Part shown: in pieces, positions 15,499 through 21,928 of the stretch
Layout of the letters: every line of letters begins with the position of its first letter
How positions within the stretch are numbered: the stretch's first letter is position 1
Program-made: the position numbers and the translations under genes
Assembly: GCA_964401305.1 (NCBI GenBank)
Contig: CAYNYQ010000001.1
Span: forward strand, 98 to 64,097
Reading direction: 5' to 3'
DNA from: an uncultured Acetobacteraceae bacterium
GTDB taxonomy: Bacteria > Pseudomonadota > Alphaproteobacteria > Acetobacterales > Acetobacteraceae
DNA length: 64,000 nt
Notes under the pieces: model-generated
The model's input: only the letters and a program-made list of their open reading frames with translations
The model's database searches: none
Told to the model about the DNA's origin: nothing

Positions 15499-16431
15499 CT
15501 AAGCGGCCTCCTCCATCTCCTCCTCGTCCGGGGCTTCGGCCTTCGGCTGCAGCGAGTGCAGGAAGTCGGCGGCGCGTTGGGCATGGGCCGAAGCTTGGAA
15601 GATGAAGCGCTTGTCGTTCTTCAGCGCCTTGAGCCATGACGCGATATAGGAAGCGTGCTCCTGCCTCGGGTCCGGCTCGATGCCAAGATCGGCGCAAAGG
15701 AACACGGAACCCAGCTCGGCAACCAGCTCCTCCTGCGCGTAGCCCTCATCGCCGAAGCGCTTACGCCCGAAGTCGCGGTCGAGGCGGCTCGGTGCCTTGG
15801 TCCAGTGCACCAGCTCGTGCAGCGCAGTGCCGTAGTAGGCCTCGGCATCGGCGAACGTCTCGAACGGGGGCATGCGGATGCGGTCTGTGGCCACGTTGTA
15901 GGCTGCGACATTCCCGCCATGCTCGACACTCGCGCCAGTGTTGGCGATGAAGATGTCGGCGGCGGTGATCCGCTCCATGTCGGTCTTGGGCTGCACCGCC
16001 TTGGCGTAGAAGTGCGGGGGCAGGCCGTCGATCTGCTCCACGTTGAAGACGCTGTAGGACTTCAGGAAGAAGATGGAGCGCTCCTCGTCCGTCTCCTCGT
16101 CGCGCCGCTTGATCTTGTCGGCATAGGTGACGGGGCTGGCCCTCTCGCCCTTCCTGACCTGGCCGCCAAGCTCTGCGGCCTGCCGGTAGGTCATCCAGAT
16201 CGGGGCGCTGTATCCCTTCGCCTCCGCTGCCATCCACAGCATGACAACATTAATTCCGCGATACGGAACGGAATTGTGGCGCAAAGGCCGAGTAATTCTC
16301 CCTGCCGCGTGCTCGGCATTCCAAGGCTTCCGCCAAGGTGGCGTTCCCGCTTCCAGTGCTGCGATGATAGCGTCCGTGACCGTCTGATAGATGTCCGCGC
16401 GCTCGGTGGCGGGCTTGCTGATCTTCCTCAT
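15499..16431 (-). CDS. ardC: ArdC-type antirestriction protein (ssDNA-binding N-domain + metalloprotease)
   Basis: ATG at 16431 with a GGAG RBS. PPWRKPW, PYRGINVVMLW, WMTYRQAAELGGQVRKGE and HELVHWT match ArdC/DUF1738 plus the HExxH domain. Confidence 0.85.
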   Translation of the reverse strand: MRKISKPATERADIYQTVTDAIIAALEAGTPPWRKPWNAEHAAGRITRPLRHNSVPYRGINVVMLWMAAEAKGYSAPIWMTYRQAAELGGQVRKGERASPVTYADKIKRRDEETDEERSIFFLKSYSVFNVEQIDGLPPHFYAKAVQPKTDMERITAADIFIANTGASVEHGGNVAAYNVATDRIRMPPFETFADAEAYYGTALHELVHWTKAPSRLDRDFGRKRFGDEGYAQEELVAELGSVFLCADLGIEPDPRQEHASYIASWLKALKNDKRFIFQASAHAQRAADFLHSLQPKAEAPDEEEMEEAA

Positions 16432-16661
16432 CTTAATATCTCCCAAGAAAAGCGAACGCTTTCTTGGGAACGAGCCCTGCGGCGGCGAGCACGGGTGAAT
16501 GCCGGAAAGCAGAAACGACAAGGTTGGTGCGGGCCGGAGCGCAGCGACTACTCGGCCTTGTCGTTTGTGCTTGTAGACAGAGGGCGGAGCCCTCCTAGAT
16601 GAACTTGTTAGACAAATGAAATTCGGAAGCTACAATAAGCGTCATTCAAATAGGAGGACTT

Positions 16662-17195
16662 GTGTTTGAGATTATGCCGAGAGAACTACCGACAAAAGTG
16701 AAGGATCGCTTTGGTCAACGATACGGAAACCTGACCGCTATCACCTTTAGCCATGTGCAGCGCCAGTACGCGTGGTGGTGGTTTCGCTGTGACTGCGGCG
16801 TGTATGTGCTCAAACGAGCCGGAGACGCGGGCCACAATAGTCGGTCGTGTGGGTGTGCGCGGTCACCATATGGCGTTGGGAGGAGCCATTCCCTTCAGTC
16901 TCCAAAATTCCACGGGATGTCGAAGACAAAGCTCTATGGGCGTTACCGGAACATGCTCAACAGATGCTACTTCCCCGGAGAAATCGGCTTCCACAACTAC
17001 GGAGGACGCGGCATCGCAGTGTGTGACGAGTGGCGCACTGATCCAAAGGCGTTTTTCGCTTGGGCACTCAACAACGGATATGACGAGAGCTTGGTCCTAG
17101 ACCGAATCGACAACGATGGCGATTACACGCCTGAGAACTGTCGTTGGGTCACGCGCTCCGTTAGTAACCGCAACAAGCGGCCTCGTCGGACATAA
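16662..17195 (+). CDS. HNH-like (degenerate) homing-endonuclease-family protein
   Basis: Paralogue of 7803..8465: RCDCG..SRSCGCA, NYGGRGIAVCDEW, NDGDYTPENCRWVTRSVSNRNKR. AT-richer island at about 16540-17240. Confidence 0.65.
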   Translation: MFEIMPRELPTKVKDRFGQRYGNLTAITFSHVQRQYAWWWFRCDCGVYVLKRAGDAGHNSRSCGCARSPYGVGRSHSLQSPKFHGMSKTKLYGRYRNMLNRCYFPGEIGFHNYGGRGIAVCDEWRTDPKAFFAWALNNGYDESLVLDRIDNDGDYTPENCRWVTRSVSNRNKRPRRT

Positions 17196-17242: not shown

Positions 17243-17749
17243 TCAACCATTGGACAAATCGGCCGCGTCAGCGGCCATGCGTCTGGCTATCCTCTCGAAG
17301 CGGTCGGACGCCCGGCGGAAGGCGTGGAAGGCGTCGCTCATCCCATCAACGGTGCTGAGCCACGGCTTCAGGTCAGGAGCGTTCAGCGCGCCATCGTCGA
17401 TGAAGGCTCGCCACTCGGGGTCGGCGCGCTCGGCCAGCATGAGCAGGTGCCGCATCGCCCGCACCAGCTCGTCGAGGCCCGCCTGCGCGGCCCGCGTATC
17501 GTCGTTCCATGAGTTCAGGTAGATCGCCAGCCCCTGCGCGAAGCGGTGGCAGGCCGTGGAGAGGCGCAGGAAGGCCGCGGTGAGATCTGGTGGGGCAGGG
17601 GAGGGACGGCCCTGTCCCCATCGCTCCACGGCTTCGACCAGCCGCCACAACGCGGCGTCAGGGGCGGGCTCGTCGAGGTCACCGGCGAGCGCATGGCGTG
17701 CGGCGGCAAGGCCAAGGAGTGACGCGAGAAAGGGCCTGCGATGCATCAT
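17243..17749 (-). CDS. secreted hypothetical protein (Tat-like signal)
   Basis: N-terminus MMHRRPFLASLLGLAAARHALA has an RRxFL twin-arginine-like motif followed by AxA. Confidence 0.5.
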   Translation of the reverse strand: MMHRRPFLASLLGLAAARHALAGDLDEPAPDAALWRLVEAVERWGQGRPSPAPPDLTAAFLRLSTACHRFAQGLAIYLNSWNDDTRAAQAGLDELVRAMRHLLMLAERADPEWRAFIDDGALNAPDLKPWLSTVDGMSDAFHAFRRASDRFERIARRMAADAADLSNG

Positions 17750-17814: not shown

Positions 17815-18522
17815 ATGTCCACCGAGCACCTGGTACCCGAGGACCTCCGGCAGCTCTACCACGTCCGGGAGTGGCGAAACGCCGCCGGCGTGCTTTCCAC
17901 GGCCTGCCCGGATGAGTGGAACGACATTATCGAGATTCTGCGTTCCTTCCGCTTGCTCCGCTCGCAGGTCCTTACGGCGGGCGGCGGCCTGTCTCCCATT
18001 TCGCAGGGGATCAACAGCGCCTTCGACGCGCGGGGGTGGAAGGAGAAGAAGTTCGAGACGCGGATCGTCGTCGACGAGACGGAATACAAGAGCCCGACGC
18101 ATCTGGTCGACTGCTTCAAGGGACGCGTCGCGCTGGAGTTGGAGTGGAATAACAAGGACCCGTTCTACGATCGAGACCTGAACAACTTCCGCCTGCTCTT
18201 CGACCTCCGGGCCATCGACGTTGGTGTCATCCTGACCCGTGCCAGCGAGCTGCAGGGCATCTTCGACAGTCTGGGGAAGGGGGCGAGCTACGGGCCGACC
18301 ACGACGCACCATAGCAAGCTCTGGCCACGGATCGAGGGCGGCGGTGGCGGCGGGTGCCCCGTCCTGACGTTCGCCATCACTCCCGCGCTGTACGTCGATG
18401 ACGGGGAGGAGGCGCTGAGGGCGGCCCTTGCTGCGCGGGAGGAGAGGCTCAGCCGCAGCCGGAGAAGGCGCGGGGGCGTGTCGGCAGCGGCGGGGTCTGA
18501 GGACAATGGCGAATCCGCCTGA
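17815..18522 (+). CDS. BglII/BamHI-fold restriction endonuclease-like protein
   Basis: VDCFKGRVALELEWNNKDPFYDRDLNNF parallels the BglII core DFGKRDTLVEVQFSN (D-x8-E-x-E/Q). ATG at 17815 is preferred. Confidence 0.6.
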   Translation: MSTEHLVPEDLRQLYHVREWRNAAGVLSTACPDEWNDIIEILRSFRLLRSQVLTAGGGLSPISQGINSAFDARGWKEKKFETRIVVDETEYKSPTHLVDCFKGRVALELEWNNKDPFYDRDLNNFRLLFDLRAIDVGVILTRASELQGIFDSLGKGASYGPTTTHHSKLWPRIEGGGGGGCPVLTFAITPALYVDDGEEALRAALAAREERLSRSRRRRGGVSAAAGSEDNGESA

Positions 18523-19192
18523 CAAGGCTCGCATGGGCGTCGGCTTCGCGATGTACGTGCTGGAGCACGAGGTGCGGGACGACCGGTTCGTCCGGATCAT
18601 CGACGATATCGCTCGCCTGATCGCATCGTCGGAGGACGCGTGCGAGCGGGCGGTGGCTTCCGGGAACGACGATTTCGCAGACGCTGTGATCGCCACGGAG
18701 ACGGACTATCTGGAAGACCTGATCGGTACGATCTTCCTGATGCTGCAGACCAAGATTCGACGTGTCGGTGAAGCGGCAATGGTTGTGTCGGACGCGCTGG
18801 AGCGTGGCTATGGCGCGGCGGCGAAGAAGTGGGCCAAGCCGCCGGTCGTGAGAGCCGAAGGCGGGGCGTACAACGGAACGCCGCATAGCCTCGTCGAGCT
18901 GGTCTGGGCGGTGGGGAACTACTTTAAACACCGCGACGAATGGTCGTCTGACGTGTGGACGCCGCCTGCAACCATAACGAAGGGCCTCAAGCAGTCCATC
19001 GCTACCCGAACCGTGGTTCAGAGCGTGGGCGTCGTGGAATCGTCCACCGGCAACATGCGGACCGCACTGGAGTTCTTCGGCGTCGATCCTTACTCATCCT
19101 GCGGCAAGCTGGCTCAGGACGTGCAGGCGTGGGCCGACACCCTGCTTGACGATGCGCGGGCCGCTGCGAAGGCGGCACAGGGAACGCCGTGA
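18506..19192 (+). CDS. hypothetical protein between nuclease and methyltransferase
   Basis: 228 aa. ATG at 18506 with a GAGGA RBS, overlapping the end of the nuclease gene. The only notable motif is VGNYFKHRDEW. Confidence 0.55.
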   Translation: MANPPDKARMGVGFAMYVLEHEVRDDRFVRIIDDIARLIASSEDACERAVASGNDDFADAVIATETDYLEDLIGTIFLMLQTKIRRVGEAAMVVSDALERGYGAAAKKWAKPPVVRAEGGAYNGTPHSLVELVWAVGNYFKHRDEWSSDVWTPPATITKGLKQSIATRTVVQSVGVVESSTGNMRTALEFFGVDPYSSCGKLAQDVQAWADTLLDDARAAAKAAQGTP

Positions 19193-19196
19193 AGGT

Positions 19197-19877
19197 TTAG
19201 TCGGCCTCGGCGTACTGCTGGCGCTCCGCTGCCGAATTGTGGGAGTAGGTGGGCCAGTTCGGCGCGTAGCTCTCGTCGGCCTGGTCGCCCCACACGGTCC
19301 ATCCCTTGCGGGCGCCGCGCGCGAACAGTTCGAGCCGGGGAGTGAAGCTGCATGCCTCAATGATGGGGTAAATCTCGTCTGGCTTGCGGGAGTGCTCGCG
19401 CTTGCGGGTCTGGAGGTAGTTCACCTGCGTCCGGCCGGGATCAAGCGTCCGGGCGTTCTTTCCGCGCACCCCGAAGAGGACCAGCTCGGTCACGTTGCGG
19501 AAATAGAACCCGACGCCGCGCCCGTCGCTGCCGCCGTCCTTCCTGATCTTCCGCCAGACGATGTTGGACTTGTAGTCGAAGCCCCACGCCTTCATCACCG
19601 CCAGTCCCTCGGGGAGGAGAGCGTTCGGCACCCACAGATAGAGGTGTGACGGATCGGCGGCGAGCTGCGAGACCGGCAGCTTGGAGATCGTCGAGACGTC
19701 GAGTGTGCCGTACCGGGACAGGCGGCGGTGTTCCGGCGCCATCTTCCCGGTGCGGTTGATAAACTGCCATGGAGGGTCGGCGAGGATCGTGCCGAACTTC
19801 TTCCCGCCGGCGGCGGCGAGGAGATCGGCGGATGGATCAGGCGCGTTCTGCAGTCGGGACACGGCGTAACTCCACAC
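19197..19877 (-). CDS. MT-A70-family N6-adenine DNA methyltransferase
   Basis: ILADPPWQF (DPPW), NVTELVLFGVRG and HSRKPDE are MT-A70 blocks. GTG start. Confidence 0.85.
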   Translation of the reverse strand: MWSYAVSRLQNAPDPSADLLAAAGGKKFGTILADPPWQFINRTGKMAPEHRRLSRYGTLDVSTISKLPVSQLAADPSHLYLWVPNALLPEGLAVMKAWGFDYKSNIVWRKIRKDGGSDGRGVGFYFRNVTELVLFGVRGKNARTLDPGRTQVNYLQTRKREHSRKPDEIYPIIEACSFTPRLELFARGARKGWTVWGDQADESYAPNWPTYSHNSAAERQQYAEAD

Positions 19878-20114: not shown

Positions 20115-20810
20115 CTAGAACAACTCATGCCACCGGTTCCCATTTTCGGCGTCCCATCGCCGCGACGTGGTGAGAGCTTTGGCGAGCGTCGGAAAACGCT
20201 GGATGCGGAGTGCGCCGTTGACGCGCTTCTGCAAGGTGAACCCGCTGCGGCGGAGAGGAATGATGCCGCGCCGATAGCGGACATAATCCACCATCTCCAG
20301 TAGGTCGGACGCATCTTCAACACTCGGTTTCTCAATGCTGTACCGGGCGAATTCGCCATGGTAGCGCAGCGCCATGGCATCATAGACACGGGCAGCTAGC
20401 TCCGGCGTTGGCAACAGGCACGTCCGAATCTCTACGCCATCAAGGACAATGGTGGCGTTCCAGCCGCCACGACGTTGGACGATGCCTTTGTACGGCTGCT
20501 GGCTGTGACGCCGCTTCTTCGAGTTGCGCGCATTTTCACGATGCTCACAGAGGCGCAGATTGCAGCGCCGATTATCGAGCGTGTCGCCGTTGATGTGATC
20601 GACATGTTGGCCGGGCTTTGCGCCCGTGACGATCCGGTGCAGCGCGACGCGGCGGCCATTCTTGTGGCGGATGCAGGCGTAGAAGCCGCCATGAAGGCCG
20701 CCCTTCGTGCGGTAGAGCTTTGCGCCGTCGAGTTGCTCGAAGTCGGCTCGGTCGATCTTGGTTAGCAACCCGCCGAAAAGCGTTACTTCGATATACTCGG
20801 CATCGGTCAT
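20115..20810 (-). CDS. HNH homing endonuclease with AP2-like DNA-binding domain
   Basis: LHRIVTGAKPGQHVDHINGDTLDNRRCNLRLC (HNH_3 type), then YKGIVQRRGGWNATIVLDG (AP2-like). ATG at 20810 with a GAGAGG RBS. AT-richer cassette. Confidence 0.8.
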   Translation of the reverse strand: MTDAEYIEVTLFGGLLTKIDRADFEQLDGAKLYRTKGGLHGGFYACIRHKNGRRVALHRIVTGAKPGQHVDHINGDTLDNRRCNLRLCEHRENARNSKKRRHSQQPYKGIVQRRGGWNATIVLDGVEIRTCLLPTPELAARVYDAMALRYHGEFARYSIEKPSVEDASDLLEMVDYVRYRRGIIPLRRSGFTLQKRVNGALRIQRFPTLAKALTTSRRWDAENGNRWHELF

Positions 20811-20859
20811 AAACCCTCTCTGCAATGATTATAAGCGATTTGAAATAAATGTCTAACGA

Positions 20860-21180
20860 GAACTGGCCCCGGTGGGTGTTGTGCAACTCGAGATCGTGGA
20901 ACACGGTGCCGAGCACGTCGGACGGCTCGGCGTCGAGCGCCATGACCAGCTCGCCGAGCATCATGGAGAACCGCTCCACCTCCTCCTTGCTGTAGCGCTT
21001 GACGATCTCGAGGTAGCGCTTCTCGCGCTCCGCGCGGTGGGCGAGGTCGACGGAGTTGCTGATGGCGATGGCGGACATCTCGCAGAAGTCGGCGAAGACC
21101 TGCCATGTGGGGTGGCGGTAGGCGTTCTGCTGAATCAGCTTGATGAGGTTCTTGCGGTGCTGGTCACTGGATGTCGGCAC
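20860..21180 (-). pseudogene. 5' fragment of a methyltransferase-like gene, ending at GQF
   Basis: 107 codons of good coding sequence (WQVFADFCEMSAIAISN...DVLGTVFHDLELHNTHRGQF). The frame then runs into the AT-rich leader of the HNH cassette. GQF(FTP) is motif X/I of gamma-class MTases as I recall it. Confidence 0.4.
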
Positions 21181-21208: not shown

Positions 21209-21928
21209 TCACAGGTCGAGCACGCCCTGTCCGGGCACTTCCATGCGTCGCCGCATGAGGCGTCCGACGTGCGAGCGAGGCATGGCGGCTGCCTCTGGGT
21301 TGAAGCGCCCTAGCTCGCCCCACTGGTCGGCCATAGCGTCGGCGACGCCCTCGAAGAAGCGGGAGCGTTCCTTCCATCGGTCCTCGCTGGGCGGCATCCG
21401 GTGCACGCGGCTCTCGCGGCCCTCGACGATGTTGGTGGGCCGAAGGGGAGGGAGGTTCTTCAGCCAGAAGCAGGTGCGCTTCGTCTCGCCATGCCCGAAC
21501 TGCCACGGCTGGATGCTTTGCGTGAAGTCCTCATAGTTGCGGATGCGCTCCTTCGCGTGCCGGTGCATGACGGGGTTCTCGATGCAGATGCGGTCGATCG
21601 GCGCGTTCCAGAAGTCCGAGAACAGGGCCGCGCCCTCGTCCAGCTCGCGCCACATCTGCTCGGACGTCTTGCCCGGTGGTGGAGCGGTGAGCCATCGGAC
21701 GCCGCTATTGCAGAGCCTGGTGCACGGCGGATGGGCCACCATGAGCAGGTCCCAGCCGTCATTCAGATGATCGCGGGCATCACCCTGAATGTGCCGATTG
21801 CTTCCGTCTTCTGCTGGCAGAAGGTCGCACGACCATGCGTCGTGTCCTCTTGCCAGAAATGCGTTTCGGACGATCCCGGAAAACTCGCAGGCTATCAGTA
21901 CGCGTAGAGGTTCAAACGCTCGTTCCAC
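21209..21928 (-). CDS. C5-cytosine methyltransferase-like phage protein (short form)
   Basis: RVLIACEFSGIVRNAF (motif I-like), AHPPCTRLCNSG (PPC) and CIENPV (ENV-like). GTG start. Confidence 0.55.
   Translation of the reverse strand: MERAFEPLRVLIACEFSGIVRNAFLARGHDAWSCDLLPAEDGSNRHIQGDARDHLNDGWDLLMVAHPPCTRLCNSGVRWLTAPPPGKTSEQMWRELDEGAALFSDFWNAPIDRICIENPVMHRHAKERIRNYEDFTQSIQPWQFGHGETKRTCFWLKNLPPLRPTNIVEGRESRVHRMPPSEDRWKERSRFFEGVADAMADQWGELGRFNPEAAAMPRSHVGRLMRRRMEVPGQGVLDL

What the first reader, a model, noticed from the sequence alone, without database searches (positions are those of the whole stretch)
17815..19877. Restriction-modification-like triad: BglII/BamHI-fold nuclease, 228-aa unknown protein, convergent MT-A70 methyltransferase
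The 235-aa protein carries VDCFKGRVALELEWNNKDPFYDRDLNNF, which parallels the BglII catalytic core (D-x8-E-x-E/Q).

Its 3' end overlaps by 17 nt a 228-aa ORF with no HTH, so this is not a typical small C-protein. The most notable motif of that ORF is VGNYFKHRDEW.

A DPPW MT-A70 methyltransferase converges on it with a 4-nt gap.

The middle gene is an unexplained third component. It could be a specificity or regulatory subunit, or an independent toxin or abortive-infection partner hitch-hiking on the RM cassette. A Tat-signal protein (17243..17749) and an HNH-AP2 cassette flank the triad.
Basis: partly seen in the sequence, partly recalled or inferred. Interest (0 to 1): 0.6.

Follow-up and report, generated by a model that had tools for sequence, protein, structure and literature searches.

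The report
Ordinary restriction-modification pair with inserted orphan gene
A standard two-gene DNA-cutting and DNA-marking defence pair, closely related to one already tested in the lab, sits on a 65-kb phage-plasmid, and the gene wedged between its two halves is an unrelated stand-alone gene of unknown function, not a third subunit.

Summary
All three genes exist at the stated coordinates.

**The outer genes are a known pair.**
- R (17815-18522) is a BglII/BstYI-family endonuclease. It hits Pfam PF09195 at 3e-40, its model matches BstYI, and D99/E108/E110 sit on the BstYI catalytic triad.
- M (19197-19877) is an MT-A70 DPPW methyltransferase.
- R and M are 59% and 69% identical to R.Nph3I and M.Nph3I, a phage pair shown to cut RGATCY and to methylate it to RG(6mA)TCY.

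**The "triad" reading fails.**
- In 19 of 20 homologous R loci an M homologue lies beside R. None of the 20, nor 2 phages or 2 plasmids, has the middle gene.
- None of about 108 loci encoding relatives of the middle gene X (18506-19192) has R, M or any conserved neighbour.
- A backbone relative of this element carries X at the same place without R or M.

**X itself.**
- X is a real gene under purifying selection (dN/dS about 0.2).
- It belongs to an unannotated family of 643 clusters at 50% identity.
- Its all-helical model is confident (pLDDT 95) and matches nothing in PDB or BFVD.
- It has an invariant N-x-x-K-H motif (NYFKHRDEW in the window).
- It occurs as a solitary gene in mobile elements and variable islands. 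Its function is unknown.

Only X keeps some interest; the pair is ordinary.

The parts
17815..18522 (+). R: BglII/BstYI-family type II restriction endonuclease, 235 aa. Catalytic D99, E108 and E110. The C-terminal basic/acidic tail is like that of homologues.
   Evidence: Pfam PF09195 at 3.2e-40 covering 162 of 163 profile positions. Profile A4 hits BstYI (1sdo) and places D99/E108/E110 on DFVKDRVAIEVQF. The AF2 model (pLDDT 88) has BstYI as its top three PDB matches, E 4e-8 to 1e-7, probability 1.00. 59% identical to R.Nph3I. More than 7000 homologues.
18506..19192 (+). X: 228-aa solitary gene of an uncharacterised all-alpha family. Invariant residues are G74, Q81, N138, K141, H142, W146, T167 and W209; the motifs are NYFKHRDEW and STGNMR. 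An alternative start lies at 18533.
   Evidence: No hit in Pfam, NCBIfam, PADLOC or PHROGs. 32 close homologues and 643 clusters at 50% identity. AF2 pLDDT 95.2. No fold match in PDB or BFVD. dN/dS about 0.2. No conserved neighbour in about 108 loci.
18506..18522 (+). 17-nt overlap of the 3' end of R with the 5' end of X, in different frames. It implies R-X co-transcription and possible translational coupling.
   Evidence: Read directly from the sequence. No promoter-like site was found between 17000 and 20400.
19197..19877 (-). M: MT-A70-family DNA methyltransferase (DPPW), probably N6-adenine, 226 aa. Gene callers use a start at 19862 (221 aa).
   Evidence: Pfam PF05063 at 4.6e-29. PADLOC MTase_II at 3.2e-86. 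69% identical to M.Nph3I over 202 aa. 64-81% identical to the methylases next to R homologues.
15499..16521 (-). ArdC-type anti-restriction protein (context). It is a backbone gene shared with the related element L001.
   Evidence: Pfam ArdcN at 7.9e-42 plus MPTase-PolyVal at 2e-52. 72% amino-acid identity to L001.
17243..17749 (-). 168-aa ORF with a twin-arginine-like N-terminus (context, not part of the R-M pair).
   Evidence: No family hit. The 3' end has a 45-nt, 78% match in L001.
16662..17195 (+). HNH endonuclease gene with lower GC3 (0.63) (context).
   Evidence: phrog_374 at 4.4e-53. GC3.
20115..20825 (-). HNH_3 endonuclease gene (context).
   Evidence: Pfam HNH_3 at 1e-08. phrog_99 at 4e-34.

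Best explanation
The stretch holds two independent modules that happen to be interleaved.

**Module 1: a conventional two-gene type IIP restriction-modification system of the Nph3I kind.**
- M uses AdoMet and most likely methylates the adenine of a GATC-core hexamer, probably RGATCY to RG(6mA)TCY.
- R is most likely a Mg2+-dependent homodimer with the D99/E108/E110 site. It would cut unmethylated copies of the same site.
- On this circular ~65-kb phage-plasmid the pair would restrict incoming DNA in the carrier cell. It could also help to stabilise the element.
- Shown here: family membership, fold, catalytic residues, and close identity to an assayed system.
- Inferred: the target site, the methylation chemistry and actual activity.

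**Module 2: X, a stand-alone gene of an unannotated family.**
- X lies exactly at the 3'-3' junction of R and M.
- It has no promoter-like site of its own and overlaps R's end by 17 nt, so it is most likely transcribed with R.
- It is not a subunit, specificity factor or controller of the R-M pair.
- Its invariant polar residues (Q81, N138, K141, H142) and near-invariant ones (E65, E70, N183, R185) look like an enzyme or ligand pocket. It also has a wide phyletic spread and a solitary position in mobile elements and variable islands.
- My best guess is therefore a single-protein enzyme acting in conflicts between mobile elements and hosts, either defence or counter-defence. This last step is inference from context only.
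For: **The R-M pair.**
- Family hits. Catalytic alignment to BstYI. Fold match to BstYI.
- R is 59% and M is 69% identical to R.Nph3I and M.Nph3I. Their RGATCY / RG(6mA)TCY activities were measured in PMC10734518.
- The association of MT-A70 methylases with BglII-type systems is stated in PMC4738411.

**The norm is two genes.**
- In 19 of 20 R-homologue loci an M homologue lies beside R and there is no X.
- Phages Lo5R7ANS and NrS-3 carry R then M in tandem.

**X is independent.**
- There is no R or M within 4-8 kb of X in about 108 loci from genomes and metagenomes, and no conserved neighbour.
- The syntenic relative L001 shares the backbone (171-aa ORF 78%, ArdC 72%, X 72%, 108-aa ORF 50%) and has X without R or M.
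- Another cassette, L009, has an unrelated DctP gene between R and M. The junction therefore tolerates inserts.

**X is functional.**

**Element context.**
- The contig has a 55-bp terminal overlap, so it is circular.
- It encodes capsid, portal, terminase and tape-measure proteins together with a MobA relaxase and ArdC.
- At least 20 public assemblies carry the identical R-X-M arrangement.

**Site avoidance.** RGATCY is depleted in the element: 18 sites, observed/expected 0.41, and none inside R-X-M.
Against:
- The RGATCY depletion is not unique. WTCGAW, WCCGGW and WCGCGW are depleted as strongly.
- The packing of X is very tight (a 17-nt overlap and a 4-nt gap), and R-X-M is identical in at least 20 assemblies. 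Co-expression, and therefore some local functional interplay, cannot be excluded.
- How X came to lie between R and M is unresolved. Synteny with L001 suggests X was resident first, which fits poorly with a simple insertion into an existing cassette.
- X's role in conflict rests only on its neighbours. These are heterogeneous and include housekeeping genes.
- X is absent from 72,556 plasmids, 50,697 phages and IMG/VR.
Confidence: 0.85

Rival explanations
1. X is a genuine third component of this particular R-M system, for example a non-HTH controller, a modulator of R, or a specificity or anti-toxicity factor recruited in this lineage.
For: X overlaps R's 3' end by 17 nt and has no promoter-like site of its own, so it is probably co-transcribed with R. 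R-X-M is invariant in at least 20 assemblies of the element. There is no HTH C-protein here, whereas some relatives have one.
Against: X is absent from 20 homologous R loci and from 4 annotated phage or plasmid versions. None of about 108 X loci has R or M. Convergent R-M pairs of this family work without a controller in many genomes, and Nph3I is active as two proteins (PMC10734518).
Confidence: 0.06
2. X is an anti-defence (anti-restriction-like) protein of the transfer or early-entry region of mobile elements. The R and M genes landed around it.
For: X lies about 2-3 kb from ArdC in the window, L001 and L013, and near a relaxase in L004. The window region also holds orphan methyltransferases. 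X is mildly acidic, with pI 4.95. X appears to be a backbone gene shared with L001.
Against: X has no similarity to any known anti-restriction family. It is strongly conserved, with invariant polar residues across many phyla, which is unusual for fast-evolving inhibitor proteins. Many loci are chromosomal islets with no transfer genes. X is absent from PLSDB plasmids.
Confidence: 0.2
3. X is a single-gene anti-phage defence or abortive-infection effector carried as cargo.
For: X is solitary with no conserved partner. It sits beside integrases. In several loci its neighbours are defence-type genes: a TIR protein, reverse transcriptase plus DUF3800, Uma2, Mrr_cat and a Ser/Thr kinase. Its conserved residues look catalytic.
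Against: No PADLOC hit. No HEPN or nuclease fold match. The NxxKH motif lacks the HEPN arginine. Other neighbours are housekeeping genes.
Confidence: 0.25
4. The R-M genes are decayed or inactive remnants, so the region has no restriction function.
For: No direct activity data exist. One relative (G222) has a split R gene.
Against: Both ORFs are full length and keep all family-invariant residues. GC3 is high. The genes are identical across at least 20 assemblies. RGATCY is avoided in the element and absent from R-X-M.
Confidence: 0.05

Closest known systems
Nph3I R-M system of Nitratiruptor phage NrS-3 (R.Nph3I = NrS3_08, M.Nph3I = NrS3_07; PMC10734518, PMC9723563)
   Same: It is a phage-borne two-gene type II system. 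R is a BglII/BstYI-family nuclease 59% identical to the window R, and M is a small MT-A70-type methylase 69% identical to the window M. Its measured activities are cutting of RGATCY, blocked by 6mA, and methylation to RG(6mA)TCY.
   Different: Nph3I has R then M in tandem with nothing between them. Here R and M converge and an unrelated 228-aa gene lies between them. The window R also has a C-terminal tail about 40 aa longer. The site of the window system has not been measured.
Chromosomal 'BglII/BstYI family type II restriction endonuclease' + MT-A70 pairs of Alphaproteobacteria (e.g. Rhodovarius lipocyclicus, L008)
   Same: R is 78-86% identical and M is 76-79% identical. The genes converge, with a 6-nt gap in L008.
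   Different: There is no middle gene. These pairs sit between housekeeping genes, not on a phage-plasmid.
BstYI / BglII (solved structures 1sdo, 1vrr, 2p0j; Pfam PF09195)
   Same: Same fold and same D-x8-E-x-(E/Q) active site.
   Different: Only about 20% identity. BstYI and BglII are not blocked by Dam-type 6mA (stated in PMC10287943 and PMC10734518). From my own knowledge, the BglII methylase makes m4C; I did not check this here.
Acinetobacter baumannii A118 'RMC' cluster (PMC10287943) and plasmid relatives pTR3_1 and the Dyadobacter plasmid
   Same: A BglII/BstYI-family nuclease (49-52% identical in the plasmid relatives) with an adenine methylase. In A118 the mark is m6A at RGATCY. In A118 and pTR3_1 a third gene lies between the two.
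   Different: There the third gene is a small HTH controller, and the methylase is a ~395-aa 'DNA adenine methylase' rather than an MT-A70 enzyme. Here the middle gene is a 228-aa non-HTH protein absent from all relatives.

Membership tests
Type II R-M, BglII/BstYI-family nuclease + MT-A70 methylase (Nph3I-like) | The nuclease matches the BglII/BstYI family model over its full length | tested here: met
   PF09195 at 3.2e-40, 138 bits against a cut-off of 26, profile positions 1-162 of 163.
Type II R-M, BglII/BstYI-family nuclease + MT-A70 methylase (Nph3I-like) | PD-(D/E)xK-type catalytic triad D-x8-E-x-(E/Q) aligned to a solved member | tested here: met
   D99, E108 and E110 align with the D, E and Q of BstYI's DFVKDRVAIEVQF. 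D99 and E110 are invariant and position 108 is E or D across divergent homologues. The BstYI residue numbers come from my own knowledge.
Type II R-M, BglII/BstYI-family nuclease + MT-A70 methylase (Nph3I-like) | BstYI/BglII fold | tested here: met
   The AF2 model has pLDDT 88. Its top three PDB matches are BstYI, with E 4e-8 to 1e-7 and TM 0.54-0.71.
Type II R-M, BglII/BstYI-family nuclease + MT-A70 methylase (Nph3I-like) | A cognate MT-A70 methyltransferase with the DPPW motif lies adjacent | tested here: met
   PF05063 at 4.6e-29. ADPPWQF is present. 69% identical to M.Nph3I. The gene is separated from R only by X.
Type II R-M, BglII/BstYI-family nuclease + MT-A70 methylase (Nph3I-like) | Cuts RGATCY and protects it by N6-adenine methylation | tested here: inconclusive
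   Only indirect evidence. RGATCY has observed/expected 0.41 in the element and does not occur in R-X-M, but other palindrome classes are equally depleted. A methylome or enzyme assay is needed.
Three-component type II R-M (R + M + controller or specificity protein) | The third gene is a small HTH controller (C) protein | tested here: not met
   No HTH family hit. X is 228 aa, with a long-helix all-alpha model.
Three-component type II R-M (R + M + controller or specificity protein) | The third gene co-occurs with R and M in homologous cassettes | tested here: not met
   No R locus has X, out of 20 R loci and 4 annotated records. No X locus has R or M, out of about 108.
HEPN-type RNase / Abi toxins (considered for X because of the NxxKH motif) | R-x4-6-H motif on a four-helix HEPN bundle | tested here: not met
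   The position before N138 is G or A, never R. There is no HEPN or other significant match in PDB or BFVD, and no Pfam or PADLOC hit.
Known anti-restriction families (ArdA, ArdB/KlcA, ArdC, Ocr), considered for X | Sequence or fold similarity to a member | tested here: not met
   No hits in Pfam, PHROGs, a PDB sequence-profile search or Foldseek.

The most novel reading that the evidence does not exclude
X founds an undescribed family: 643 clusters at 50% identity, present in at least eight phyla, with a confidently modelled all-helical fold that has no solved or viral-predicted relative. Its invariant residues Q81, N138, K141 and H142, together with the near-invariant E65, E70, N183 and R185, may form a pocket. 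In this reading X is a new single-protein enzyme of mobile-element conflict, acting in defence or counter-defence. Here it is wired into the transcript of a restriction gene, so it would be expressed whenever the element arms its R-M system.
Probability: 0.3. Interest if true: 0.6.

Novelty: new member of a known kind. Interest (0 to 1): 0.3.

Why it matters
The R-M pair adds little. It is one more member, carried on a phage-plasmid, of a very common family that has already been assayed. It does give a testable prediction of RG(6mA)TCY methylation for the many alphaproteobacterial relatives.

Two points have some value.
- A tightly packed three-gene layout can look like a three-part system when the middle gene is only a lodger at the 3'-3' junction. 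A second cassette with a DctP gene at the same junction shows that this is a recurrent insertion point.
- X is a sizeable, well-conserved, unannotated family with a confident model of an apparently new fold. That makes it a reasonable candidate for functional screening and for a new family entry.

Tried and rejected
- **Family libraries for X.** Pfam, NCBIfam, PADLOC and PHROGs found nothing for X, for eight distant relatives, or for the short Vibrio-type relatives, even at E <= 10.
- **Structure searches for X.** PDB sequence-profile searches with A1 found nothing. Foldseek against PDB and BFVD gave best E values of 0.08 and 0.02 with TM <= 0.41, all generic helical bundles.
- **HEPN idea for NxxKH.** Rejected: there is no arginine and no fold match.
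- **Conserved-partner search for X.** All-against-all BLASTP of ORFs within 4-5 kb of X in about 108 loci found nothing shared beyond close relatives. Integrases recurred in 6 loci of the first set of 39.
- **X in curated collections.** None in PLSDB plasmids, INPHARED phages or IMG/VR.
- **Insertion scars around X.** No flanking direct or inverted repeats and no promoter-like site. DNA homology to L001 ends about 70 nt inside each end of X, so the order of events is unresolved.
- **Guessing the target site from palindrome avoidance.** The element avoids many 6-bp palindromes. The RGATCY depletion is real but not unique.
- **PDB searches for R.** phmmer with R, and a profile from the narrow alignment A2, both missed BstYI. 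The wider alignment A4 was needed.
- **Tool limits.** The alignment A3 was too divergent for the search for related loci.
Full report
**1.

- R is 17815-18522 (+), 235 aa. X is 18506-19192 (+), 228 aa. M is 19197-19877 (-), 226 aa.
- The quoted motifs are all present.
- The 17-nt R/X overlap and the 4-nt X/M gap can be read directly from the sequence.
- Gene callers start X at Met10 (18533), which removes the overlap. Homologues conserve the residues before that Met and often have Leu at its position, so 18506 is the better start.
- Third-position GC is 0.86, 0.79 and 0.87, so all three ORFs look coding.

**2. The outer genes are a known restriction-modification pair**

*The nuclease R*
- R matches Pfam Endonuc-BglII end to end at 3.2e-40.
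- A profile built from R and divergent homologues hits BstYI (1sdo). It puts D99, E108 and E110 on the D, E and Q of BstYI's DFVKDRVAIEVQF.
- An AlphaFold model of R (pLDDT 88) has the three BstYI entries as its only significant PDB matches, with E 4e-8 to 1e-7.

*The methylase M*
- M matches MT-A70 at 4.6e-29 and PADLOC's type II methylase model at 3e-86.

*What is already published*
- The pairing is not new. Iyer et al. state that the MT-A70 clade is nested in a prokaryotic radiation that includes methylases of BglII-type systems (PMC4738411).
R is 59% identical to R.Nph3I and M is 69% identical to M.Nph3I of Nitratiruptor phage NrS-3.
- The paper shows that R.Nph3I cuts RGATCY and is blocked by 6mA. 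It also shows that M.Nph3I makes RG(6mA)TCY (PMC10734518).
- A more distant relative in A. baumannii A118 also gives m6A at RGATCY (PMC10287943).

*Indirect evidence for the site*
- The 65,088-bp element has only 18 RGATCY sites among 343 GATC sites. Observed/expected is 0.41, and the four R...Y flank combinations are the four rarest of the 16.
- No RGATCY site lies inside R-X-M.
- Other palindrome classes are just as depleted, so this is consistent with RGATCY but does not prove it.

**3. The system normally has two genes**

- I collected 20 loci with R homologues, at 33-86% identity, from relatives and public assemblies.
- In 19 of them an M homologue (64-81% identity) lies directly beside R. 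It is mostly tail to tail and sometimes in tandem. None of the 20 has X.
- In Rhodovarius the two stop codons are 6 nt apart.
- Two phages carry R then M with nothing between them.
- Two plasmids pair a 49-52% identical R with an HTH controller and a different adenine methylase.
- One cassette, L009, has an unrelated DctP transporter gene between R and M. The convergent junction can therefore take lodgers.

**4. X lives on its own**

*It is a real, conserved gene with no known relatives*
- X has 32 close homologues (34-70% identity) and 643 clusters at 50% identity in an exhaustive profile search. All are unnamed.
- No Pfam, NCBIfam, PADLOC or PHROG model hits X or its distant relatives.
- Its AlphaFold model is very confident (pLDDT 95, pTM 0.90) and all-helical, with a 48-residue central helix. 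Foldseek finds nothing significant in PDB or BFVD.
- Invariant residues across 43 diverse members are G74, Q81, N138, K141, H142, W146, T167 and W209. E65, E70, N183 and R185 are nearly invariant.
- dN/dS against its closest relatives is 0.16-0.23.

*It has no fixed partner*
- None of about 108 loci from genomes and metagenomes has an R or M homologue within 4-8 kb.
- No neighbour family is shared beyond close relatives.
- The neighbours are a mixture:
  - integrases, ArdC, HTH/ImmA-type regulators and a MobA relaxase;
  - in more distant loci, a TIR protein, reverse transcriptase plus DUF3800, Uma2, Mrr_cat and a Ser/Thr kinase;
  - also GatB, a P-type ATPase and a HAD hydrolase.
- X is absent from 72,556 plasmids, 50,697 phages and IMG/VR.

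**5. The carrier element and the order of events**

*The element*
- The window is nearly all of a contig with a 55-bp terminal overlap, so the contig is a circle of about 65.09 kb.
- It encodes capsid, portal, terminase and tape-measure proteins. It also encodes a MobA relaxase, a coupling-protein-like ATPase and ArdC.
- At least 20 public assemblies contain it with an identical R-X-M arrangement.

*The relative L001*
- An 83-kb metagenome contig, L001, is a backbone relative. Shared genes are a 171-aa ORF (78%), ArdC (72%), X (72%), a 108-aa ORF (50%) and one further ORF.
- L001 carries X in the same place, but with a Cas4-like nuclease gene upstream and unrelated genes downstream. It has no R or M.
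- DNA homology between the two elements stops about 70 nt inside each end of X.

*What this means*
- X looks like a resident of this element lineage flanked by two cargo slots.
- I cannot say how a convergent R-M pair came to straddle it. There are no repeats or scars.

**6. Mechanism**

*Most likely, confidence about 0.85*
- M methylates RGATCY-type sites, and R cuts unmethylated ones. This protects the carrier cell and the element against other invaders.
- X is an unrelated passenger read from R's transcript.

*Function of X*
- It is unknown.
- The enzyme-like invariant residues, the wide spread and the solitary island position make a single-protein conflict enzyme my best guess.
- I put defence at about 0.25 and counter-defence at about 0.2. 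A true role in this R-M system gets about 0.06.

**7. Limits**

- There are no activity, methylome or transcript data.
- My sample of R loci is 20 plus 4 annotated records, out of more than 7000 homologues.

**8. Verdict**

This is an ordinary R-M pair and a new member of a known, assayed kind. It has an unrelated orphan gene lodged between its halves. Only the orphan family merits follow-up.

Noticed in passing
whole window (contig C1, 65,143 bp): The contig has a 55-bp terminal direct overlap, so it is a circle of about 65,088 bp. It combines phage structural genes with a MobA relaxase, a coupling-protein-like ATPase and ArdC. Contigs of 65,118 bp with different start points occur in other public runs.
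   Followed up: partly
L009 4001-6713; G222 contig C1 892139-894221 (L057/L066): Other R-M cassettes of this family are disrupted or occupied. L009 has a DctP solute-binding gene between R and M. In G222 the R gene is split into two pieces about 1.4 kb apart.
   Followed up: partly
L058-L065 versus the window: M stays 71-81% identical in six of the eight loci where the partner R is only 32-40% identical (66% in L059). There are at least three R subfamilies, some with M upstream in tandem. The methylase is thus far more conserved than the nuclease it pairs with.
   Followed up: no
whole element: Many 6-bp palindromes are strongly avoided: GAGCTC 1 observed against 24 expected, and GGCGCC, CCGCGG and GCCGGC at about 0.2 of expectation. 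CTAG is also avoided. This is much stronger than in the rest of the assembly.
   Followed up: partly
L043-L049, e.g. L044 7656-8240: Vibrio, Pseudoalteromonas, Cognaticolwellia and Methylophaga carry a shorter (~175-195 aa) protein that shares only the ANYFKHRDEW block with X. In L044 and L049 it follows a 403-aa Ser/Thr protein kinase gene.
   Followed up: partly
window 16526-16558 and 16662-17195: A 33-nt block just upstream of ArdC is 97% identical to L001. The lower-GC3 HNH gene that follows has no counterpart in L001, as expected for a selfish insertion.
   Followed up: no
window 20572-21180 and 21209-21928: An ORF matching phrog_5696 only over its first ~107 residues runs into the HNH_3 gene. 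Next to it is a phrog_757 DNA methyltransferase that has no Pfam hit.
   Followed up: no
L001 5324-5815: In the backbone relative, a 163-aa Cas4/PD-(D/E)xK nuclease gene occupies the slot that R occupies in the window, directly upstream of X.
   Followed up: no
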